From: Candidatus Sulfomarinibacteraceae bacterium
Lineage (GTDB): Bacteria > Acidobacteriota > Thermoanaerobaculia > Thermoanaerobaculales > Sulfomarinibacteraceae
Length of the DNA: 64,000 bases
Direction of reading: 5' to 3'
Assembly: GCA_041552055.1 (NCBI GenBank)
Contig: JBFELO010000001.1
Location: 23,099 to 87,098 of the forward strand
The notes below the pieces were generated by a model. That model did not search any database and was not told where the DNA came from. It saw only the letters and a program-made list of their open reading frames with translations. This document shows positions 8,708 through 50,089 of this stretch, one piece after another; the first letter of the stretch is position 1, and the number at the start of each line of letters is the position of its first letter. The position numbers and the translations under genes were made by a program.

Positions 8708-8790
8708 CCGTCTCCGTCTCCGTATCCTTATCGGAACTCTCATACCGTTCCGAGGCGCGGGTCGGGCACGGAGACGAATACGGATACGGG
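8708..8790. repeat. CCGTCT-hexamer hairpin element (family A), complete copy
   Basis: Left arm cccgtctccgtctccgtatcc. Right arm gggcacggagacgaatacggatacggg. The arms are largely reverse-complementary. Lies in the prfA-prmC spacer. Confidence 0.85.
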
Positions 8791-12470: not shown

Positions 12471-12546
12471 CCCGTCTCCGTCTCCGTCTCCGTCTCCGTG
12501 CCCGAATCGCCCCTCGGATCCGTCCAAAGGATCAGAGACGGAGACA
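12471..12546. repeat. CCGTCT-hexamer hairpin element (family A)
   Basis: Sequence is (ccgtct)x4 ccgtgcccgaat ... cagagacggagacag. The arms are reverse-complementary. Confidence 0.85.
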
Positions 12547-20600: not shown

Positions 20601-20739
20601 CCCGTTCCCGTACCCGTCCCCGTTCCCGGAGGGCCGGTGCTCTCGGCTCTCCGGCTTATCTGACCAAAACACATCGGCCTATGTGATCTATCGGAAGGTG
20701 CCACCGGGTACGTGAACTGGAGGGGGGACGGGCACGGAG
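20601..20739. repeat. divergent family A-like element: C-run hexamer arm (20601-20629) and distant GGGACGGGCACGGAGC arm (20726-20739)
   Basis: Reads cccgttcccgtacccgtccccgttcccgga ... gggacgggcacggagc. The spacing between the arms (about 100 nt) is longer than in other copies. Confidence 0.55.
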
Positions 20740-35692: not shown

Positions 35693-35775
35693 CCGTCTCC
35701 GTTTTCGTCTCCGTCTCCGTAGCCGAACTCTGACTCGATCTCGTGAGGCGATGCGGGCACGGAGACATATACCGA
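35693..35775. repeat. CCGTCT-hexamer hairpin element (family A)
   Basis: Reads ccgtctccgttttcgtctccgtctccgtagccgaa ... gcgggcacggagacatataccg. Confidence 0.85.
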
Positions 35776-35863
35776 CACTCTTCCCTCGTCACGTGAGCAG
35801 GCCGGGTCCGGGCTCGTGCCGACCCCATCCGTCCCGCGAAATTCCTGCTACCCTTTTCCGGTG

Positions 35864-37030
35864 ATGACCTCTGCCCGAATCCGACACCGGCTGCGGCCGC
35901 TCGGCATCGCAGCCCTGGTGTGGCTCGCCGTCGCGACCCGCGCGACGGCGCTCGCCCCGAGCACCGAGCTCCTGGTGCCCGCCGCCGCCCGCACCGGACC
36001 CTGGATCACCGACCTCTACCTGCTCAACCTCGGCGAGAACGCCAACGAGGTCACCGTCGAGTGGCTGGTGCGCGGCCAACCGAACCCCGAGCCGACGGCG
36101 ATCACGCTGTCTCTGTCCGGCAACGAGTCCCGGGTTCTCGAGGACGTCATCCGAACCGGTTTCGGCCTCGACCGAGGCCGCGGCGCGTTCCGGATCTCGT
36201 CCTCGGCCGACGTCGTGGCGACGTGCCGGATCTACGCCACCGAGGATGACGGCACCTACGGGCAGGGCTTCGAGGCCGTCCCGACCGACGCCGCGACCGT
36301 GGCCGGCACCTCCACTCACGTGCTCGGCCTGAGCTTCTCCGACGACTTCCGCGCCAATGTGTACGCTGTGGCCGGCGTCGACGGCGCCGCTGTCCGGCTG
36401 CAGCTGATCGACCCGGCCGGGTCGCCACTCGCCGAGGCCGACCTCGTGCTCGGCGCGTTCGAGCCATACCTCGAGCCGCTGACGACGGTGTTTCCCATCG
36501 CAGCCGTCGAACGGGCCACCCTGCTGGTCCACGTCTCTGGGGGCAGCGTCGTGGTGGGAGCATCGAAGATCGACAACCTCTCCTCCGATCCGACAACCCT
36601 GACCAGCTGGATTCCGGGCGCCGGCGATCCGCTGGCGGCCGGCAGCTATTTCGGAGTCGTGGCTGCGACAGACACCGCCGCGAACGGTGGCTTGACGCTG
36701 CTCCTCGACGGCGACGCCAACGTGGTCGGAATCGAGTTCTCCTACCCCGCCGAATCGTGCTCCGCATTGCTCACCGCCGGCCAAGATCTGTCCGAGGAGC
36801 CGCTGTCGCTGGCCGAGCTGGCCGCGGGATACACCTTCGTCACGTCCTACCCGGGGGGAGGCACGATGGAGTGGTCGCTCCAGCTCGAGCTGCAGACGGC
36901 CGGGACCACCCTTGCCGGCTCGCTGGCCGCGACCGGCTCGAGCTGGGGCGGCGAGTTCGAGACCTGTAACGGTGACCAAGGCCCGCTCGCGGTCGCGCTC
37001 GGCTCCAGGCAGTCCTCGGCGCGGGAATGA
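35864..37030 (+). CDS. secreted protein of unknown function, paralog 1 of a tandem pair
   Basis: ATG at 35864 and a signal peptide (..LAVATRATALA). Shares long colinear motifs with the next gene: LVPAA.R..PW.TDLY..N.G, GAFR, RIY, GQGFE.VP, FR.NVYA.AG.DGA, EPYL, GASK.D..S.DPTTL, MEW and CNGD. Confidence 0.7.
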   Translation: MTSARIRHRLRPLGIAALVWLAVATRATALAPSTELLVPAAARTGPWITDLYLLNLGENANEVTVEWLVRGQPNPEPTAITLSLSGNESRVLEDVIRTGFGLDRGRGAFRISSSADVVATCRIYATEDDGTYGQGFEAVPTDAATVAGTSTHVLGLSFSDDFRANVYAVAGVDGAAVRLQLIDPAGSPLAEADLVLGAFEPYLEPLTTVFPIAAVERATLLVHVSGGSVVVGASKIDNLSSDPTTLTSWIPGAGDPLAAGSYFGVVAATDTAANGGLTLLLDGDANVVGIEFSYPAESCSALLTAGQDLSEEPLSLAELAAGYTFVTSYPGGGTMEWSLQLELQTAGTTLAGSLAATGSSWGGEFETCNGDQGPLAVALGSRQSSARE

Positions 37031-37166: not shown

Positions 37167-38330
37167 ATGCGACGTTTCATCTCGATCGCCACCGCCCTGA
37201 TCATTCTGGCCTCGGTGCCGGCGCTCGCCCTCAACTCCGGCACCGATATCCTGGTTCCGGCGGCCGGCCGGGGCGACCCCTGGCGGACCGATCTGTACGT
37301 GATGAATCCGGGGTCCGCGACGGTCGCGGTCACCGTGTCGTGGCTGGTGCGCGACCGGGCCAACCCGAGCCCGGCCTCGTTCACCTTCAGCGTGGGACCC
37401 GGCCAAACCGAGATCTTCGAAGACATCATCCTCGAGGAGTTCGGCTTCGCCAGCGGCGGCAACGCCAACGGAGCGTTCCGGGTAGTCGCCGACGGCGACG
37501 TCGTCGTCAATACGCGGATCTACTCCGACGACGGTAGCCAGACCTTCGGTCAGGGCTTCGAGGGCGTCCCCACATGGGCGGCGACCGGCGCCGGCCAATC
37601 GACGGAGGTGGTCGGCCTCACCCAGGGTTTCGGATTCCGCACCAACGTTTACGCGACCGCCGGGCCCGACGGTGCTTCGATCGACTTCACCCTGGTCGCA
37701 CCCGGGGGCAGCACGATCGCCTCGGCCACCCTCGGCCTGGACAGCTACGAGCCTTACCTGCAGCGCATCACCCGACTGTTCTCCGGGCTCGCCGACTTCG
37801 ACAACGCCAGCCTGCGCGCCGAGGTCACAGCCGGCCTGGCGGTGATCGGCGCCTCGAAGGTGGACGACGCCTCGACCGATCCCACGACCCTCGAGTCGGC
37901 GGCCTCTGGCGGCACCACCGGTTCGGTGGACGGCAGCTACCAGTTCGTGCTCTACGAAGAGAGTACCTTCCCGGGCGGCGGCGGCGGCACCCTGGCGATC
38001 ACCGACGGGTGGGTCACCTTCATCAACGGCAGTTACTTCAACTTCGACAACGACGACGACGGCGACGGCGAGCCCGACTGCCTGTGGGTCTTCCCCTGGG
38101 GCCAGGACTTCGACACCGCACCGGTGGAGGACTTCGCCGACGGCTACACCTACCAGGACACGTTCTCGGACACTCCCGGTGTCATGGAGTGGACCGTGCA
38201 GTTCACCGTCGACAACAACATGGCGCTCGAGGGCACCATGACCGCGGTCGGTTCGGGATTCGCGGCGCCCGACACCGCCTGCAACGGCGACTTCCCGCCG
38301 CTCGACTTCAGGGCGGGCAAGGCGAACTGA
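37167..38330 (+). CDS. secreted protein of unknown function, paralog 2 of a tandem pair
   Basis: GAGGAGG sits 7 nt upstream of the ATG at 37167. Has a Sec signal MRRFISIATALIILASVPALA. Colinear with paralog 1 over its full length, and two Cys are conserved between the pair. Confidence 0.75.
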   Translation: MRRFISIATALIILASVPALALNSGTDILVPAAGRGDPWRTDLYVMNPGSATVAVTVSWLVRDRANPSPASFTFSVGPGQTEIFEDIILEEFGFASGGNANGAFRVVADGDVVVNTRIYSDDGSQTFGQGFEGVPTWAATGAGQSTEVVGLTQGFGFRTNVYATAGPDGASIDFTLVAPGGSTIASATLGLDSYEPYLQRITRLFSGLADFDNASLRAEVTAGLAVIGASKVDDASTDPTTLESAASGGTTGSVDGSYQFVLYEESTFPGGGGGTLAITDGWVTFINGSYFNFDNDDDGDGEPDCLWVFPWGQDFDTAPVEDFADGYTYQDTFSDTPGVMEWTVQFTVDNNMALEGTMTAVGSGFAAPDTACNGDFPPLDFRAGKAN

Positions 38331-38347
38331 CGACGACGCCTCCTGTG

Positions 38348-39673
38348 TCAGTCACCGATTGACGGCCGCCCGTTCGGGCGGCCGTCATCGTCCTCGCGCC
38401 CGGCTTCACCGCTCGCCACGAGGGCACGCGCCCACAGCACCGGCCCCACCAGCTGATTGATGACCACCGCCGCCACCACCACCGTCGCCAGCCGTTCGCC
38501 GATACCTTCGAGTTCGCGACCGATGCGCGCGGCGAGACCCAACGACAAGCCGGCCTGGGCAACAAACCCTTGCCACGCCCACTGCACGACCGATGGACCC
38601 GCACCGGCGACCCGCGCCGGCAGTCGCGTCAGCAGCCACACCGCGGCCAGCCGCACGGCCACGTACAGTGCGGCGGGGAGCCAGACCACCGTGAACACCC
38701 CGAGGTCGAGGTCGGCGCCGACCAGCGCGAAGAACACGACGTAGATCGGCCCGGCCGACCGCTCGAGCGCATCCAGAAACGCCGCCGAAGAGCGGCCGAA
38801 GATATTTCGCACCGCGAACCCCACCGCCACGCACACCAGCAGGTGCTCCACCGGCGCCGCCCGCCCGAGCTCGAACGACACCAGGGCCAGCGCGAGCACC
38901 GCCAGCTCGAGGTGGCGGCCGACCTTGCCCAGGTAAATACCGAACACCAGCCCCAGACCGCAGCCGACCACGAGCGAGAGGATGATCTCGATCCCGACGG
39001 CTCGTACGAGCGACAGATCGAGCGGTTCGTCGCCGAGGGCCGCACGCCCCGCAGCGTAGACCCACGCGAAGAGCAGCAACACCAACACGTCCTTCAGCAC
39101 CGTCACGCCGAGCACGGTCTCGGTCAGCTCGCCGCGGGCCCGCATCTCGGTGATGACTGCAATCGTGGTCGACGGTGACACCGCTACCGCGATCACACCC
39201 AACAGCGTGGCCACGGCAACTGCCTCGGCCGCCGTCAGCGGTCCCAGAAACGGCACCGCCGCCAGTCCGAGCCACGTCGCGCCCGCCACCACGAGCCAGA
39301 TGCCCAGCACGTGCCCGAGGGTGATCGCGGCCAGCGGCCGCGCACGATCGCGGATTTTGCGCCACCGGAGCTGGGCCCCCGCGGTGAGCGCGATCAGGCC
39401 GAGCGCCAACTCCTGGAAGAGGTGCAGGAACCGGGCATCGTCGGCGGTCTCGAGCCCGAGCGCGTATGGACCCGCCAGCAGTCCGAGGACCAGGTAACCG
39501 GTGATCCTCGGCAGCCGCCACCGCGCGGCGAGCTCACCGGACAGCACGCCGCCGATGATCAGGCAGCTGAGGCTGATCAGCGCCGACCCTGCCCGATCCT
39601 CGACCACGCCCACGCCGAGCGCGCGAGCCGTCCAGCTCGTCGCGGCGAGCACAGCGAACAGGAACCACCTCAT
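38348..39673 (-). CDS. cation:proton antiporter (CPA/Na_H_Exchanger family) membrane protein
   Basis: About 12 hydrophobic segments. SPSTTIAVITEMRARGEL...LGVTVLKDVLVLLLF resembles the CPA2 core (S.T...V...L.E....G......D....). ATG at 39673 overlaps the upstream stop (ATGA). Confidence 0.7.
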   Translation of the reverse strand: MRWFLFAVLAATSWTARALGVGVVEDRAGSALISLSCLIIGGVLSGELAARWRLPRITGYLVLGLLAGPYALGLETADDARFLHLFQELALGLIALTAGAQLRWRKIRDRARPLAAITLGHVLGIWLVVAGATWLGLAAVPFLGPLTAAEAVAVATLLGVIAVAVSPSTTIAVITEMRARGELTETVLGVTVLKDVLVLLLFAWVYAAGRAALGDEPLDLSLVRAVGIEIILSLVVGCGLGLVFGIYLGKVGRHLELAVLALALVSFELGRAAPVEHLLVCVAVGFAVRNIFGRSSAAFLDALERSAGPIYVVFFALVGADLDLGVFTVVWLPAALYVAVRLAAVWLLTRLPARVAGAGPSVVQWAWQGFVAQAGLSLGLAARIGRELEGIGERLATVVVAAVVINQLVGPVLWARALVASGEAGREDDDGRPNGRPSIGD

Positions 39674-40845
39674 CCGGCCGTCCCGCCCCGAGGCCGGACC
39701 AGGTGCCGACCCATCCACCAACGTCCCACGAGTTGGTGTATCACCATCGCCGCCACCACAGCTTCGAGAACCCCTTCGCTGCCCGTCGAGAAACCGACCA
39801 ACGCGACCAACAGCCCGAGTGCCAGCTCGCCCTGCGGCAGGAGCCCGAGACCGAGCCCTGGCACCTTAACCGGCACACCGTGACGGCCCGCCCGGGCCGC
39901 CAGCACGCGACCCCCGATCAGGGCTCCCAGAACCCTCCCAACGACGATGACGGCGAAGATCTGCCACGAAAAGGCCACGCCGCTCCACGCCGCCCCGACC
40001 AACACCAGCAGTGCGATGACGAGCGGCCGTTCGAGCGAGTGTGCGACGCGCAGGATCCGGTGGGGAAATTCGGCTCGGTTGATCAGGATCGCGCCGGAAC
40101 AGGTTGCGGCGGGCAGTGCACTGACGCCGAGCAGCGCGGTCGCGCCGGCCAATCCCACCATGGTGCCGATAAGGAGGGTCACGATCTCCACCGGCTCTCG
40201 AACACCTCGCACGAGCACCAGGGACAGGTACCCGACCACGATGCCGATGCCCACCAGGTAGAGCAACAGCTGCCACTGCGACAGACCGTGGGCCACCTCG
40301 GACAACGGGCTGGCCCATACGGATGCGACACCGAAACCCGCCACCGCGGGCAGGCCGGCGAAGGCACCCACCAGCTTGAGCAGGCGGAACGCGGAGCGGT
40401 CGGCAGGCACCCGACCGCGCGCCACACCTTCGAGCGTGCTCGGGGCCGGCGCCATGGCGACCGCCGCCAGGGAGAGCGCCAGCCACGGCCGCAGGCCAAG
40501 CAGAAAGCCACACAGTGCCACTGAGGATCCGATGAGCAGTGGCACCAGCCAGCCCACCCGACGGTGCCACGGCCGCAGGTGGCGGAGCACGCGGAGCTCG
40601 ATCTGTAACCCGAACACGAGTCCGATCCACGCCAGACCGAGCAGTACCACGACCCGCAACGTCACTAGAACGTCGGCCGGAAACAGGCCGAACGCGCGAT
40701 CGCCAAGGGCAAAGCCGACGGCCAGGAACGACAACCCCTCCATCGCCGGGGCCCGCAGTCCCCGTCGTGCGAGAGCGGCCCGCAACTCGGTACCGAGCAG
40801 GGCGAAGGCGACCAGCACCAGGAACGCCACTGTTCCGCGCAGCAT
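39670..40845 (-). CDS. cation:proton antiporter-like membrane protein (divergent)
   Basis: ATG at 40845 (MLRGTVAFLVL...). Polytopic, with GLQIELRVL and PQGELALGL resembling CPA motifs. By eye, the acidic residue aligned to the KD of the neighbour is absent. The upstream part of the track ORF is translated repeat. Confidence 0.55.
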   Translation of the reverse strand: MLRGTVAFLVLVAFALLGTELRAALARRGLRAPAMEGLSFLAVGFALGDRAFGLFPADVLVTLRVVVLLGLAWIGLVFGLQIELRVLRHLRPWHRRVGWLVPLLIGSSVALCGFLLGLRPWLALSLAAVAMAPAPSTLEGVARGRVPADRSAFRLLKLVGAFAGLPAVAGFGVASVWASPLSEVAHGLSQWQLLLYLVGIGIVVGYLSLVLVRGVREPVEIVTLLIGTMVGLAGATALLGVSALPAATCSGAILINRAEFPHRILRVAHSLERPLVIALLVLVGAAWSGVAFSWQIFAVIVVGRVLGALIGGRVLAARAGRHGVPVKVPGLGLGLLPQGELALGLLVALVGFSTGSEGVLEAVVAAMVIHQLVGRWWMGRHLVRPRGGTAG

Positions 40846-40908
40846 GGTCCCAGTGTACCGGGGGCTGGCTGACGTGCCCCCCGCCCGCTCATGTGACTCG
40901 GTGGAGTA

Positions 40909-40975
40909 CCCGTCTCCGTATCCGTCTCCGTGCCCGATGCGGCAACGTTCGGACCGGATACGGAGACGAATACGG
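40909..40975. repeat. CCGTCT-hexamer hairpin element (family A)
   Basis: Positions 40911-40924 (cgtctccgtatccg) are the perfect reverse complement of 40955-40968 (cggatacggagacg). The GTGCCCGA boundary is at 40929-40936. Confidence 0.9.
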
Positions 40976-41000
40976 CCGTCAGCTCGGCTTTCGCCCCTCT

Positions 41001-41033
41001 CCGTTCCCGTTCCCGTTCCCGTTCCCGTTCCCG
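41001..41033 (-). repeat. (CCGTTC)x5 tandem hexamer, which is (GGGAAC)n on the minus strand: a canonical G-quadruplex motif
   Basis: Reads ccgttc x5 + ccg directly. The minus strand has five GGG runs separated by AAC. Confidence 0.9.
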
Positions 41034-41169
41034 AAGAGACAGTACCATCGGGATCTCGTGTACTGATCCCCCTCAAGCAAGGGAACTCTTTCGCGCTGTC
41101 GGGAGCTGCTCATCAGCTGTGGGGACAGGCAGCAGGAGACACCACGCCCGTCGTCGTGGAGACTGCTCG

Positions 41170-41502
41170 TCAGAAGTACTCGAGATCCGACAGCGGTACG
41201 AGGAACACCGCGTTGGCCGGCTCGCCCGCCGGCACCGCATCACTGCCCAGATCACGGATCGCGGCGAGTGCCTGACGGGCCTGCTCACGGTCGCCGACCA
41301 CGCACAGCACCAGGCGGCTGAAGTCGATCCCACCGGGAATCAGCGATCGCAGCCCGGCGAAGATTGGCAGATCCCGCTCCAGCAGCTCGAGGCCGGTCCG
41401 ACTCTCGACGACCACCGAGTCTGGCAGCTCGTGTTCGACCAGCACGGCAATGACCTCGTCGAGCAACTCCTCCCGGTGGAGGATCGCCACCAGGAGCTGC
41501 AC
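41170..41502 (-). CDS. small PII-like (ferredoxin-fold) signalling protein, family uncertain
   Basis: 110 aa. The pattern is beta-alpha-beta / loop / beta-alpha-beta (LLVAILHREELLDEVIAVLVEHELPDSVVVESRTG ... SRLVLCVVGDREQARQALAAIRDLG ... AVFLVPL). The GTG start lies immediately after the ptsN-like stop. Confidence 0.45.
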   Translation of the reverse strand: MQLLVAILHREELLDEVIAVLVEHELPDSVVVESRTGLELLERDLPIFAGLRSLIPGGIDFSRLVLCVVGDREQARQALAAIRDLGSDAVPAGEPANAVFLVPLSDLEYF

Positions 41503-41961
41503 CTATGCCCCCTCGAGCTCCGCGAGCACGGCCAGGAACGCATCGCCGGTCTCGGCGTGAATGAGCCTTTCGAGGGCGTCGTCACGCCGCGCGAGCCGCG
41601 CCAGGCGCGCGAGCCCCGCGAGATGATCGGCCGCGGTGTTGGCGTCCCCTATCAGGCAGAACACCAGTCGTACGGGCTGCTGGTCGAGGGCGGGGTAGTC
41701 GAGGCCGTTGGGGTGAATGGACGCCGCCATCACGAGCCGGCCGACACCCGGGACCTGCGCGTGGGGTACGGCGACGCCACCTCCGATACCGGTGGAGAGA
41801 ATCTGCTCTCTCTCGAGCAGCTTTTCCACCACCTTGGTGCCGTCGGGCACGAGCTCCAAGCGCTCGAAAACCGAGCCGAACAAGCGGAACAGCTCGTCGC
41901 GCCCGTCCACATCGGGTGCGATGAGCACCAGCTCGGGGCGTAACTTGTCAGCCAGACGCAT
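41503..41961 (-). CDS. ptsN: PTS EIIA(Ntr)-type (fructose/mannitol family EIIA) regulatory protein
   Basis: 152 aa. EREQILSTGIGGGVAVPHA contains the phosphorylatable His in the G.A.PH context. It is stand-alone, as PtsN is. Confidence 0.75.
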   Translation of the reverse strand: MRLADKLRPELVLIAPDVDGRDELFRLFGSVFERLELVPDGTKVVEKLLEREQILSTGIGGGVAVPHAQVPGVGRLVMAASIHPNGLDYPALDQQPVRLVFCLIGDANTAADHLAGLARLARLARRDDALERLIHAETGDAFLAVLAELEGA

Positions 41962-42074
41962 CGGACAGACGGTGCCTCCCGAACAGGGAGCTTAGGGTGC
42001 TCTCGGCCGACGCGCAAGAGGAAGGGCCGTCTATTCGTGACCGTTCGCCCGTTGGATGGACGCCCGACGCGTCG

Positions 42075-42518
42075 TCACAGACGGTCGACGAAGTCGCTCA
42101 GACCCGAGATCGTGAACCTCTCGCCGTTGAGGCCCTTGACGATGCACACCACGTGCAGCACCAGGATGGCGAGCAAGAGCACCGGCAACAGCAGGCCGGC
42201 CAGACAGCCGAGACCACCGCTGATCGCGCTCAGCACGAAGACTACGATCTGGAGCCCGACGATGATCGCGATCTCCGCGACCAGCAGGACCAGGCCGTGC
42301 TTGGCGTGCCATTGCACCTCGCGATCGTCCCGCTCCACCAACAGTGGGATCAGTGCCAGCAGACCCAGGTACGACAGCACGATCCAGACCGCGCGGTTGT
42401 CCGAGACCGGCCCACCCGACGGCAACGTGCCCGGTGCCTCATCCGCCGGTGGCGGTGGTGGTGGTGGCGTGGCTGGCGGCGGCTCCGGCGGACCCTGCGG
42501 GGTATCCTCGTTGGTCAT
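42075..42518 (-). CDS. small membrane protein (DUF4870-like) with Pro-rich N-terminus
   Basis: ATG at 42518. YLGLLALIPLLVERDD.EVQWHAKHGLVL and three TM segments. The upstream part of the track ORF is discarded. Confidence 0.5.
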   Translation of the reverse strand: MTNEDTPQGPPEPPPATPPPPPPPADEAPGTLPSGGPVSDNRAVWIVLSYLGLLALIPLLVERDDREVQWHAKHGLVLLVAEIAIIVGLQIVVFVLSAISGGLGCLAGLLLPVLLLAILVLHVVCIVKGLNGERFTISGLSDFVDRL

Positions 42519-42676
42519 CCTCGACCTCCCTGATCGCGGTTGGACTAAGTGTGAACTCTGGAGAATCTTACCAGAGCGGTCGTTTGTGCGGATGAATGCC
42601 ATGGTCTGCTCGGCGGTTCGACCCGACTCGAAGAAGGTCGCGATCACGGTGAAGCGTGCCCCGGGCGAGTCGGGGG

Positions 42677-42704
42677 CCTTGCACCTTGCACCGTGTACCT
42701 TGTC
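42677..42704. repeat. tandem heptamer block x4 (ccttgca ccttgca ccgtgta ccttgtc), complement orientation of the CAAGG family
   Basis: Read directly. It is followed by tcggtgggtgggg and two GCATCC/CAGCATCCAG motifs related to those at 398-410 and 550-659. Confidence 0.85.
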
Positions 42705-42807
42705 CCTCGGTGGGTGGGGCATCCGGCATCCGACTTCGCGCTGCGCTCTACGCCTTGACACGTCCAGCATCCAGCGACGAGCCACCAGAATCGGTTGGGA
42801 GGGGAGT

Positions 42808-50017: not shown

Positions 50018-50089
50018 CCCGTCTCCGTCTCCGTGCCCGTCTCCGATCGCGACGCGGTTGGACGTTTCGGGCACAGAAACGGGCACGGG
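50018..50089. repeat. CCGTCT-hexamer hairpin element (family A)
   Basis: Reads cccgtctccgtctccgtgcccgtctccgat ... cgggcacagaaacgggcacggg. Lies between two divergent tRNA-Ser genes. Confidence 0.85.

What the first reader, a model, noticed from the sequence alone, without database searches (positions are those of the whole stretch)
38348..41961. ptsN-like EIIA and a PII-like protein upstream of two overlapping cation/proton-antiporter-like genes: candidate regulated ion-transport module
On the minus strand the order is as follows.
1. A stand-alone EIIA(Ntr)-type protein that retains the phosphorylatable His (GGGVAVPHA).
2. A 110-aa protein with a PII-like beta-alpha-beta x2 pattern, whose GTG start lies immediately after the first gene's stop.
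3. A 324-bp spacer packed with repeats (a family A hairpin plus (GGGAAC)5).
4. Two CPA-family-like polytopic proteins joined by an ATGA overlap.

The upstream transporter paralog appears to lack the conserved acidic residue that its partner keeps (..VLKDVLVL.. versus ..LVGAFAGLP..). That hints at a heteromeric pair with one degenerate subunit.

In E. coli, EIIA(Ntr) is known to control K+ transport (TrkA, KdpD). PII-like proteins such as SbtB are known to gate adjacent transporters. This particular four-gene combination is not one I recognise. ptsN is also outside its usual rpoN-hpf-ptsN context.
Basis: partly seen in the sequence, partly recalled or inferred. Interest (0 to 1): 0.6.

Follow-up and report, generated by a model that had tools for sequence, protein, structure and literature searches.

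The report
EIIA plus PII-like regulators of antiporter pair
Four adjacent genes (a sugar-phosphotransferase-type EIIA signalling protein, a divergent PII-like signalling protein, and two related membrane ion-exchanger proteins, one lacking its ion-binding residues) form a gene module conserved across several uncultured bacterial phyla, which I could not find described and which probably ties ion or pH balance to metabolic state.

Summary
On the minus strand lie EIIA (41503-41961), a 110-aa protein (41170-41502) starting right after the EIIA stop, a 324-nt repeat-rich spacer, T1 (39670-40845) and T2 (38348-39673), the last two joined by an ATGA overlap.

- The 110-aa protein has no Pfam or NCBIfam hit, but its model matches only PII/GlnK/SbtB/PstA structures. 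Sequence profiles link it to PII through a wider subfamily with a long conserved T-loop (PIFAG[LF]R).
- T2 is a Na_H_Exchanger protein with K-D in place of the DD/ND motif.
- T1 has no Pfam hit. It is a distant paralogue of T2 with the same fold and no core acidic residue.
- All four genes co-occur in 31 of 34 Thermoanaerobaculia species loci, despite inversions.
- Distant relatives (Aminicenantes, Latescibacterota, Elusimicrobiota and others) keep EIIA + antiporter + PII-like in permuted orders in 28 of 35 loci. EIIA-PII and PII-PilZ fusions also exist.
- The spacer is a lineage-specific repeat insertion, not part of the module.

Functional linkage is well supported. The gating mechanism, the T1-T2 heterodimer and the substrate are inferred. 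It is a new variant combining two known regulatory themes (PtsN-YcgO, SbtB-SbtA).

The parts
41503..41961 (-). Stand-alone PTS EIIA (PTS_EIIA_2 family), 152 aa. The phosphorylatable His lies in GGGVAVPHA.
   Evidence: PF00359 at E=2e-26. It scores below the cut-offs of both the PtsN and FruA-IIA NCBIfam models. The 'PH' His is invariant in 34 orthologues and in 53 EIIA proteins from distant modules.
41170..41502 (-). Divergent PII-superfamily protein, 110 aa, GTG start abutting the EIIA stop. It has a long, highly conserved T-loop (residues ~34-61, ...LLERDLPIFAGLRSLIPGGIDF) and a degenerate B-loop.
   Evidence: No Pfam or NCBIfam hit. AF2 model has pLDDT 84 with beta-alpha-beta-beta-alpha-beta order. 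The Foldseek top 50 are all PII/GlnK/SbtB/PstA. hhalign to the wider subfamily gives 99.8%, and that subfamily hits solved PII proteins by sequence. Invariant residues cluster in the T-loop.
40846..41169 (-). 324-nt intergenic spacer made largely of dispersed hexamer repeats: a (GGGAAC)5.5 array at 41001-41033 and an imperfect long hairpin at 40906-40975. It is lineage-specific and not part of the conserved module. Only the last ~25 nt before the T1 ATG are conserved in close relatives.
   Evidence: TRF, inverted repeats, the same repeat units at >=6 other intergenic sites in the window, no Rfam hit, no terminator-like site. Orthologous gaps are 7-396 nt. Spacers are 324, 241 and 165 nt in relatives of 100, 88 and 84% identity.
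39670..40845 (-). T1: 391-aa protein with the cation/proton antiporter (CPA) fold and no soluble domain. It lacks all core charged residues of the CPA motif: TM4 is A-P-A-P, TM5 is F162-A163 in the ungapped register, and TM10 is A. It is the putative non-transporting partner subunit.
   Evidence: No Pfam hit. A few orthologues carry PF00999. hhalign to T2 gives 95.9%, E=5.6e-9. AF2 pLDDT is 84.5. Foldseek hits are SOS1, PaNhaP, NapA, NHA2 and NHE1 at TM 0.6-0.68. Mean column identity is 71% over 39 orthologues.
38348..39673 (-). T2: 441-aa Na_H_Exchanger-family protein whose ATG overlaps the T1 stop (ATGA). It has an atypical core: TM4 A-V-S-P, TM5 V190...K194-D195 (K-D instead of DD/ND), and V345 at the position of NapA Lys305.
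   Evidence: PF00999 at E=4e-23. K194 and D195 are invariant in 38 orthologues. Alignment to NHE6 and MjNhaP1 places K-D on N-D and S166 on the TM4 Asp. hhalign to DD-type relatives gives 100%, E=2e-49, and maps K194 onto D and V345 onto K.

Best explanation
This is a conserved signalling-plus-transport module.

Shown:
- Four co-inherited genes encode a stand-alone PTS EIIA with an intact phospho-accepting His, a divergent PII-superfamily protein, and two paralogous proteins with the cation/proton antiporter fold and no cytoplasmic regulatory domains.
- T2 keeps the universally conserved transport Asp (D195), but with Lys next to it.
- T1 has lost every core charged residue, yet is under the same purifying selection as T2.

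Inferred mechanism:
- T1 and T2 form a heterodimeric elevator-type exchanger. T2 is the only transporting protomer. T1 acts as a scaffold or docking subunit.
- The PII-like protein is a detachable cytoplasmic gating subunit. It plays the role that RCK, KTN or CorC domains play in other cation/proton antiporters, and uses its long conserved T-loop to bind its partner.
- The EIIA, depending on whether His68 is phosphorylated by the general PTS proteins (a read-out of PEP/pyruvate or nitrogen status), binds the PII-like protein or the transporter and switches transport on or off.

The output is most likely monovalent cation (K+ or Na+)/H+ exchange, so that ion and pH homeostasis follow metabolic state. 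The 324-nt spacer in this window is an incidental, lineage-specific repeat insertion.
For: Gene identities:
- EIIA, with the His invariant in 34 + 53 orthologues.
- PII fold and a sequence chain to PII.
- T2 as Na_H_Exchanger.
- T1 as a cation/proton antiporter fold and T2 paralogue.

Linkage:
- 31 of 34 GTDB species loci carry all four genes. The other three are contigs of 1.8-4.5 kb.
- The pairs stay together through three divergent arrangements and one convergent one.
- EIIA-PII are always abutting, and T1-T2 are always overlapping or abutting.

Breadth:
- The PII-like subfamily has 171 representative clusters.
- In 35 well-flanked metagenomic loci of relatives only 25-30% identical to the window protein, 28 carry EIIA + antiporter + PII-like. 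The orders seen are ETP, TEP, EPTT, EETP and ETTP.
- The taxa span Aminicenantes, Latescibacterota, Elusimicrobiota and others.

Fusions:
- Three proteins fuse EIIA to the PII-like domain.
- One fuses the PII-like domain to PilZ and is followed by a T1-T2 pair with the K-D motif. This suggests the PII-like protein couples an exchangeable input to the transporter.

Precedents:
- Unphosphorylated PtsN binds and inhibits the CPA1 K+/H+ antiporter YcgO (PMC11808508).
- PII-like SbtB plugs SbtA (cited in PMC10710835).

Degenerate subunit: motif columns are. T1 conservation is 71% against 69% for T2.
Against: - No protein-protein interaction was or could be tested here, because no multimer prediction was available.
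- PII proteins are trimers and cation/proton antiporters are dimers, so a symmetric plug like SbtB-SbtA or GlnK-AmtB is not expected.
- The window protein lacks the canonical nucleotide-binding B-loop (GDGKIF) and the C-terminal arginines. What it senses is unknown.
- No HPr or Enzyme I gene lies in the window or in 1.28 Mb of flanks of related loci. Phosphorylation of the EIIA is therefore assumed, not shown.
- Some relatives have EIIA-PII without a nearby transporter: L046, L121 and the fusion in L124. The pair may therefore have other targets.
- K-D in place of DD/ND, and no basic residue at CPA motif position 8, is unprecedented among characterised cation/proton antiporters (PMC6181914). 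The substrate and even antiport itself are uncertain.
- A heteromeric cation/proton antiporter has, to my knowledge, not been described.
Confidence: 0.55

Rival explanations
1. EIIA and the PII-like protein form a general two-protein signalling unit whose real target is something else, such as an enzyme or a transcription factor. The antiporter genes are merely co-expressed or are one of several outputs, without direct gating.
For: The EIIA-PII pair is the invariant core. It occurs without a nearby transporter in L046 and L121. It also occurs as a fusion in a housekeeping context in L124. Gene order between the pair and the transporter is variable.
Against: 31 of 35 well-flanked distant loci and 31 of 34 species loci have an antiporter gene within 3.5 kb. 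The association survives permutations and inversions across phyla. The transporters have no regulatory domain of their own. A PII-PilZ fusion again sits directly upstream of T1-T2.
Confidence: 0.2
2. T1 and T2 do not form a heterodimer. Each forms its own homodimer. T2 is an unusual exchanger, and T1 has a different role, such as sensor, channel or transporter of another substrate.
For: All structurally characterised cation/proton antiporters are homodimers (known structures, e.g. those hit). T1 has its own set of invariant charged loop residues.
Against: T1 and T2 are always adjacent, with overlapping or abutting stop and start codons, in every locus that has the K-D type T2. T1 lacks any acidic or basic core residue needed for ion binding. 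Tandem duplicated transporters recur in related modules: ETTP and TTP.
Confidence: 0.15
3. The K-D core means T2 (with T1) is no longer a cation/proton antiporter. It carries a different substrate or works as a uniporter or channel, with the Lys acting as a tethered cation.
For: Position 6 is Lys instead of Asp, Asn or Gln. Position 8 is Val instead of Lys or Arg. The TM4 Asp is Ser. The survey of the superfamily describes Asp, Asn or Gln at position 6, and Arg or Lys at position 8 in 95% of sequences (PMC6181914).
Against: The essential position-7 Asp is invariant. The closest relatives have the canonical NapA-like D-D-K signature. Aminicenantes T2 orthologues keep K at position 8 together with K-D.
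Confidence: 0.25
4. The gene order is only inherited synteny within one clade, between the housekeeping genes gap-pgk-tpi and dnaX-recR, with no functional link.
For: All 34 genome hits are Thermoanaerobaculia, and the flanking housekeeping genes are also syntenic.
Against: Relatives in other phyla carry the same trio in different flanks and orders. Within the clade the two pairs stay adjacent after inversions. Domain fusions exist.
Confidence: 0.03

Closest known systems
PtsN (EIIA-Ntr) control of the CPA1 K+/H+ antiporter YcgO/CvrA in E. coli (PMC11808508)
   Same: A stand-alone EIIA of the PTS_EIIA_2 family with a phosphorylatable His is functionally tied to a transporter of the Na_H_Exchanger superfamily. 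In E. coli the unphosphorylated form binds and inhibits the antiporter.
   Different: - YcgO carries its own cytoplasmic RCK and CorC region, which is the PtsN docking site. T1 and T2 have no soluble domain.
- A separate PII-like protein is encoded instead.
- The E. coli genes are unlinked, whereas these are in one cluster.
- This EIIA fails the PtsN equivalog threshold.
PII-like SbtB gating the bicarbonate transporter SbtA, and GlnK plugging AmtB
   Same: A small PII-fold protein is encoded next to a transporter. A long T-loop is its most conserved part.
   Different: - The partner has the cation/proton antiporter fold and is presumably dimeric, not a trimeric SbtA or AmtB.
- There is no canonical nucleotide-binding B-loop.
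- There is no SbtB C-terminal CGPxGC extension.
- The T-loop is ~28 residues with a PIFAGLR motif.
- An EIIA is always co-encoded.
CPA2 antiporters regulated by soluble partners or domains (KefC-KefF, KhtU-KhtT, CpaA with RCK_C and c-di-AMP). This comparison is from my own knowledge.
   Same: A CPA2-type membrane domain is controlled by a cytoplasmic ligand-sensing component. The single-transporter relatives of this module have the NapA-like D-D-K signature.
   Different: The regulator fold is PII plus EIIA rather than RCK/KTN or flavodoxin-like. The window's transporter is a two-gene pair with a K-D core and a dead paralogue.
NapA / PaNhaP / MjNhaP1 (solved 13-TM cation/proton antiporter structures)
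   Same: Same fold for T1 (TM-score 0.6-0.68). Sequence-level homology for T2 and its DD-type relatives.
   Different: Identity is 13-20%. T2 has S instead of the TM4 Asp or Ser-Thr pattern, K-D in TM5, and V at the TM10 Lys/Arg. T1 has none of the motif charges.

Membership tests
PTS EIIA, mannitol/fructose/Ntr type (Pfam PF00359) | Domain match above the Pfam gathering score | tested here: met
   93 bits against a cutoff of 27, E=2e-26, covering residues 7-148
PTS EIIA, mannitol/fructose/Ntr type (Pfam PF00359) | Phospho-accepting His in the G-x-G-x-A-x-P-H motif | tested here: met
   GGGVAVPHA at residues 60-68. The His is invariant in 34 orthologues and in 53 EIIA proteins of distant modules.
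PtsN / EIIA-Ntr (NCBIfam TIGR01419, NF008145) | Score above the equivalog cut-off | tested here: not met
   66.5 bits against 138.7, and 48.7 against 221. It scores equally well (70.4 against 103.5) with FruA-type IIA.
PtsN / EIIA-Ntr | rpoN-hpf-ptsN-rapZ-npr gene context | tested here: not met
   The flanks are a DUF4870-like membrane protein and gap-pgk on one side, and the PII-like gene on the other. No HPr/NPr or EI motif is present in the window.
PtsN / EIIA-Ntr | Phosphorylation by NPr / EI-Ntr | not testable with these tools
   Whole genomes could not be scanned. No HPr or EI lies within 1.28 Mb of flanks of related loci.
PII superfamily | Ferredoxin-like beta-alpha-beta-beta-alpha-beta fold with a T-loop between beta2 and beta3 | tested here: met
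   AF2 model has pLDDT 84 and pTM 0.78, with elements E2-8, H11-23, E30-33, loop, E63-69, H72-85, E98-103. The Foldseek PDB top 50 are all PII, GlnK, SbtB or PstA at probability 1.00.
PII superfamily | Sequence match to Pfam P-II (PF00543) or to solved PII proteins | tested here: inconclusive
   The window protein and its own profile do not match. The match is only transitive: the window-family profile finds a wider subfamily (hhalign 99.8%). Of that subfamily, 36 of 79 members hit PF00543 at up to E=1.8e-8, and its profile hits solved PII proteins at E=1.3e-4.
Canonical PII (GlnB/GlnK) | B-loop T-G-x-x-G-D-G-K-I-F and C-terminal Arg101/Arg103 for ATP/ADP/2-oxoglutarate binding | tested here: not met
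   The region between alpha2 and beta4 is variable in 38 orthologues, with consensus GEPxNT and no Gly-rich motif. The wider subfamily keeps only G-x-G-x-x-F.
Canonical PII (GlnB/GlnK) | Homotrimer | not testable with these tools
   Only monomer prediction was available.
SbtB | Encoded next to SbtA, with a C-terminal CGPxGC redox extension | tested here: not met
   The neighbours are proteins with the cation/proton antiporter fold. The C-terminus is ...SDLEYF.
Cation/proton antiporter superfamily (Pfam PF00999): T2 | Domain match above the gathering score | tested here: met
   82.2 bits against 26.2, covering residues 43-413
Cation/proton antiporter superfamily: T2 | Asp at CPA motif position 7 (EcNhaA D164), present in 94% of the family (PMC6181914) | tested here: met
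   D195 aligns with D of the ND motif in NHE6 and MjNhaP1 and with the second D of DD-type relatives. It is invariant.
CPA1 or CPA2 subfamily signatures: T2 | Position 6 is Asn/Asp(/Gln). Position 8 is Arg/Lys. CPA1 additionally has Glu at position 5 and the TM4 T-D. | tested here: not met
   Position 6 is K194, position 5 is V190, and the TM4 Asp is S166. Position 8 is V345, mapped through DD-type relatives onto NapA K305. The NCBIfam CPA1 and CPA2 models are not reached.
Cation/proton antiporter superfamily: T1 | Pfam domain match | tested here: not met
   No hit for the window protein. Only 7 of the 120 listed orthologues carry a precomputed PF00999 hit.
Cation/proton antiporter superfamily: T1 | NhaA/NapA-type fold with unwound TM4 and TM11 | tested here: met
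   AF2 pLDDT 84.5. The Foldseek top 50 are all cation/proton antiporter structures at TM 0.5-0.68. hhalign to T2 gives 95.9%.
Cation/proton antiporter superfamily: T1 | Position-7 Asp | tested here: not met
   A163 in the ungapped register (the same 28-residue spacing from the TM4 x-P as in T2 and MjNhaP1), or L158 in the hhalign register.
CPA3 (Mrp-type) | Multi-subunit Mrp/Mnh proteins | tested here: not met
   No Mrp family hit in Pfam or NCBIfam for T1 or T2.

The most novel reading that the evidence does not exclude
A previously undescribed three-component switch. A PTS EIIA and a new PII subfamily (long PIFAGLR T-loop, no canonical nucleotide site) form a signalling complex that gates antiporters of the cation/proton antiporter family lacking regulatory domains. 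In the Acidobacteriota branch the transporter has become an obligate heterodimer of one K-D-core protomer and one catalytically dead protomer. That would be the first heteromeric cation/proton antiporter and the first direct EIIA-PII partnership.
Probability: 0.3. Interest if true: 0.8.

Novelty: new variant of a known kind. Interest (0 to 1): 0.62.

Why it matters
PII proteins and the regulatory PTS are the two most widespread metabolic-status signalling systems in bacteria. They are usually treated as separate systems. A conserved gene module, with natural EIIA-PII fusions, that joins them on one transporter would be a direct link between the two.

It would also explain how cation/proton antiporters without RCK or KTN domains are regulated in several large uncultured phyla: Acidobacteriota classes Thermoanaerobaculia and Aminicenantia, Latescibacterota and Elusimicrobiota.

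The T1/T2 pair offers a natural test of whether an elevator-type antiporter can work with one dead protomer. It also shows what a Lys next to the transport Asp does to coupling. Finally, the small protein and T1 are currently annotated mostly as 'hypothetical', so defining the families improves annotation.

Tried and rejected
- BLASTP of T1 against T2 showed nothing. Profile-profile comparison was needed.
- The profile of the small protein against PDB sequences gave only spurious designed-repeat hits. The T1 profile gave none.
- The Pfam NIL-domain hit of the small protein (E=0.09) was dismissed as noise.
A 10-sequence subset worked.
- The AFDB fold library was unavailable.
- An Rfam scan of 38000-42800 found nothing. 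The promoter/terminator scan found no promoter, and only one terminator-like site, downstream of T2.
- I considered that the ~742-aa and 462-aa genes following many distant modules might be PtsP and RpoN. They are HEAT-repeat and HD-domain proteins.
- I considered a charge swap (D6 to K together with K8 to V) as a general rule for the K-D type. It was rejected because Aminicenantes T2 keeps K at position 8.
- The hhalign register pairing T1 K157 with T2 K194 was not adopted. The ungapped register keeps the 28-residue spacing from TM4 and is supported by the L125 T1-like protein, which has Asp at that column.
- Literature searches for this trio returned nothing relevant. The Borrelia BB0017 and SbtB preprint hits were unrelated.

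Full report
**1. The observation**

- EIIA lies at 41503-41961 (152 aa). It ends in TAG.
- The next codon, GTG at 41502, starts a 110-aa ORF (41170-41502).
- A 324-nt gap follows (40846-41169).
- T1 lies at 39670-40845 (391 aa).
- T2 lies at 38348-39673 (441 aa). Its ATG overlaps the T1 TGA.

The starts of the small protein, T1 and T2 are confirmed by aligned orthologues that begin at the same residues. The window is ~67% G+C, and its relatives are Thermoanaerobaculia (Acidobacteriota) MAGs.

**2. What each gene is**

*EIIA.* It matches PF00359 at 93 bits. It stays well below the NCBIfam cut-offs for both PtsN (66.5 against 138.7) and FruA-type IIA (70.4 against 103.5). It is therefore a stand-alone member of the EIIA_2 family, not a demonstrable PtsN. 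The phospho-accepting His (GGGVAVPH) is invariant in 34 orthologues. It is also invariant in 53 EIIA proteins from distantly related modules.

*The 110-aa protein.*
- It has no Pfam or NCBIfam match.
- Its AlphaFold2 model (pLDDT 84, pTM 0.78) has the order beta-alpha-beta-loop-beta-alpha-beta.
- Its 50 best PDB matches are all PII, GlnK, SbtB or PstA.
- A profile of 38 orthologues, searched against 1.84 billion representative proteins, finds 171 clusters. Beyond the core clade these are ~105-120-aa proteins sharing MxLLxxVLNxEE...G(A)TV...PIFAG[LF]R.
- hhalign links the two sets at 99.8%.
- 36 of 79 members of the wider set hit Pfam P-II. The profile of the wider set finds solved PII proteins by sequence.

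So the protein is a divergent PII-superfamily member. Its invariant residues are concentrated in a ~28-residue T-loop. The B-loop, which binds nucleotides in canonical PII, is variable and lacks the GDGKIF motif.

*T2.* It is a Na_H_Exchanger protein.
- Alignment to NHE6 and MjNhaP1 puts its invariant K194-D195 on the N-D motif and S166 on the TM4 Asp.
- Alignment to its closest non-orthologous relatives gives hhalign 100%, E=2e-49.
- Through those relatives, alignment to NapA shows that they carry the NapA-like D-D...K signature. T2 has K-D, and Val at the NapA-Lys305 column.
- According to the superfamily survey (PMC6181914), position 7 Asp is near-universal. Position 6 is Asp, Asn or Gln. 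Position 8 is Arg or Lys in 95% of sequences. T2 keeps only the first of these.

*T1.*
- It has no Pfam hit and is invisible to BLASTP against T2.
- It aligns with T2 profile-to-profile (95.9%, 352 columns).
- Its model (pLDDT 84.5) matches only cation/proton antiporter structures.
- In the ungapped register its TM5 pair is F162-A163. This register keeps the same 28-residue spacing from the TM4 'x-P' as in T2 and MjNhaP1. hhalign prefers a register giving K157-L158. Either way there is no acidic residue.
- The TM10 basic residue is also absent.
- T1 is nevertheless as conserved as T2, with 71% against 69% mean column identity.

Neither protein has a soluble domain.

**3. Conservation of the neighbourhood**

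A scan of one genome per GTDB species found 34 loci, all Thermoanaerobaculia or Sulfomarinibacteraceae-type MAGs. I ran HMMs built from my own alignments on their six-frame ORFs.

- 27 loci are collinear: EIIA-PII-T1-T2.
- 3 loci have T2-T1 divergently upstream.
- 1 locus has the pair convergent downstream.
- The other 3 are contigs of 1.8-4.5 kb.
- EIIA and PII are always abutting. T1 and T2 are always overlapping or abutting.
- The PII-to-T1 gap ranges from 7 to 396 nt and is mostly 20-60 nt.

A metagenome scan seeded with distant PII-like relatives (25-30% identical to the window protein) returned 80 loci. Of the 35 with adequate flanks:

| Content within 3.5 kb | Loci |
|---|---|
| EIIA + antiporter + PII-like | 28 |
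| Antiporter + PII-like | 3 |
| EIIA + PII-like | 2 |
| PII-like alone | 2 |

The orders seen are ETP, TEP, EPTT, EETP and ETTP. Some of these contigs are near-duplicates, so the counts are approximate.

The transporters there are PF00999 proteins of ~398 aa with D-D. An Aminicenantes group has the same EIIA-PII-T1-T2 layout, with K-D in T2 and no charges in T1. Named sources include Latescibacterota, Aminicenantes and Elusimicrobiota.

Three proteins fuse EIIA to the PII-like domain. One PII-like-PilZ fusion directly precedes a T1-like/T2-like pair with K-D. Exceptions exist: EIIA-PII without a transporter in L046 and L121, and a fusion in a housekeeping context in L124.

**4. The spacer**

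- The (GGGAAC)5.5 array and the hairpin built from inverted CGGAGA/CGGATA units are real.
- They belong to a hexamer-repeat family found at six or more other intergenic sites in the window.
- The spacer RNA folds somewhat better than shuffles (z=-2.9). It has no Rfam match and no terminator-like site.
- In relatives whose PII-like protein is 88% and 84% identical, the spacer is 241 and 165 nt. Only the hairpin (88% relative) and the last ~25 nt before the ATG (both relatives) are shared.

The spacer is therefore a fast-evolving insertion and not a module component. Whether it attenuates read-through is untested.

**5. Mechanism**

Shown: the gene identities, their co-inheritance across phyla, the fusions, the intact His, and the degenerate T1 core.

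Inferred:
- T1-T2 form a heterodimer with one active protomer.
- The PII-like protein acts as a detachable gating subunit through its T-loop.
- The EIIA phosphorylation state is the input.
- The L125 fusion suggests the input can be exchanged for c-di-GMP through PilZ.

Precedents are PtsN binding and inhibiting the CPA1 antiporter YcgO (PMC11808508), and SbtB/GlnK plugging their transporters.

Weak points:
- No interaction test was possible.
- There is a trimer/dimer symmetry mismatch between PII proteins and cation/proton antiporters.
- The ligand of the PII-like protein is unknown.
- No HPr or EI was found in the window or in 1.28 Mb of related flanks.
- The effect of the K-D core on substrate and coupling is unknown.

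**6. Novelty**

Both regulatory themes are known: EIIA-Ntr acting on a cation/proton antiporter, and a PII-like protein acting on a transporter. I found no paper describing their combination, the PIFAGLR PII subfamily, or a two-gene antiporter pair with a dead paralogue. The searchable library is incomplete, so this is absence of evidence only.

I rate it a new variant of a known kind, with moderately high interest.

Noticed in passing
window 8708-8789, 12472-12504, 20604-20627, 35693-35719, 40906-41033, 50019-50045: A dispersed family of hexamer-repeat arrays (units CGGAGA, CGGATA, CGGGAA, CGGGCA). Nearly all lie on the minus strand, and at least three sit just upstream of minus-strand gene starts (e.g. 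dnaX, T1). Zero matches are expected by shuffling. Some form long imperfect hairpins. Function unknown.
   Followed up: partly
L125:4610-8336: A 405-aa protein fuses the PII-like domain to a PilZ (c-di-GMP-binding) region. It is followed directly by a T1-like/T2-like pair with the K-D motif, and no EIIA lies between. The T1-like protein there still has Asp-Asp near the motif column.
   Followed up: partly
P0422 (L042), P0472 (L124:2566-3465), P0476: Natural EIIA-PII-like fusion proteins of 277-299 aa. The one with context (L124) sits among housekeeping genes (ispE-like kinase, prs, L25, pth) with no transporter nearby.
   Followed up: partly
L121:7540-8340 compared with L116 and L120: An Aminicenantes-type locus otherwise syntenic with L116 and L120 keeps EIIA-PII, but no T1-T2 pair was detected between them and the next shared gene.
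   Followed up: no
L066, L074, L089, L090, L103-L108 (gene upstream of EIIA): Many distant modules carry a second, longer EIIA-domain protein (228-275 aa) immediately upstream of the short EIIA. The N-terminal extension was not analysed. Their transporters have Leu instead of Lys at CPA motif position 8.
   Followed up: no
window 35816-37030 (+) and ~37167-38330 (+): Two tandem paralogues (39% identity, E=2e-76) of ~390-400 aa with signal-peptide-like N-termini and no Pfam match. They are convergent with T2. A family-less gene of similar size occupies the same place in L001 and L004.
   Followed up: partly
window 42075-42518 (-): A small membrane protein with a weak DUF4870 (MamF/MmsF-like) match lies directly upstream of the EIIA. 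It is conserved there in close relatives (L001-L005, L126-L128). In L001-L003 a YidD-like gene is inserted between it and the EIIA.
   Followed up: no
L126:957-2490 and L127:738-1511: In two close relatives (PII-like protein 88% identical), RepA_C genes sit just upstream of the DUF4870-EIIA cluster, joined in L126 by a NikA/MobC-like gene. They replace gap-pgk and hint at a mobile-element insertion next to the module.
   Followed up: no
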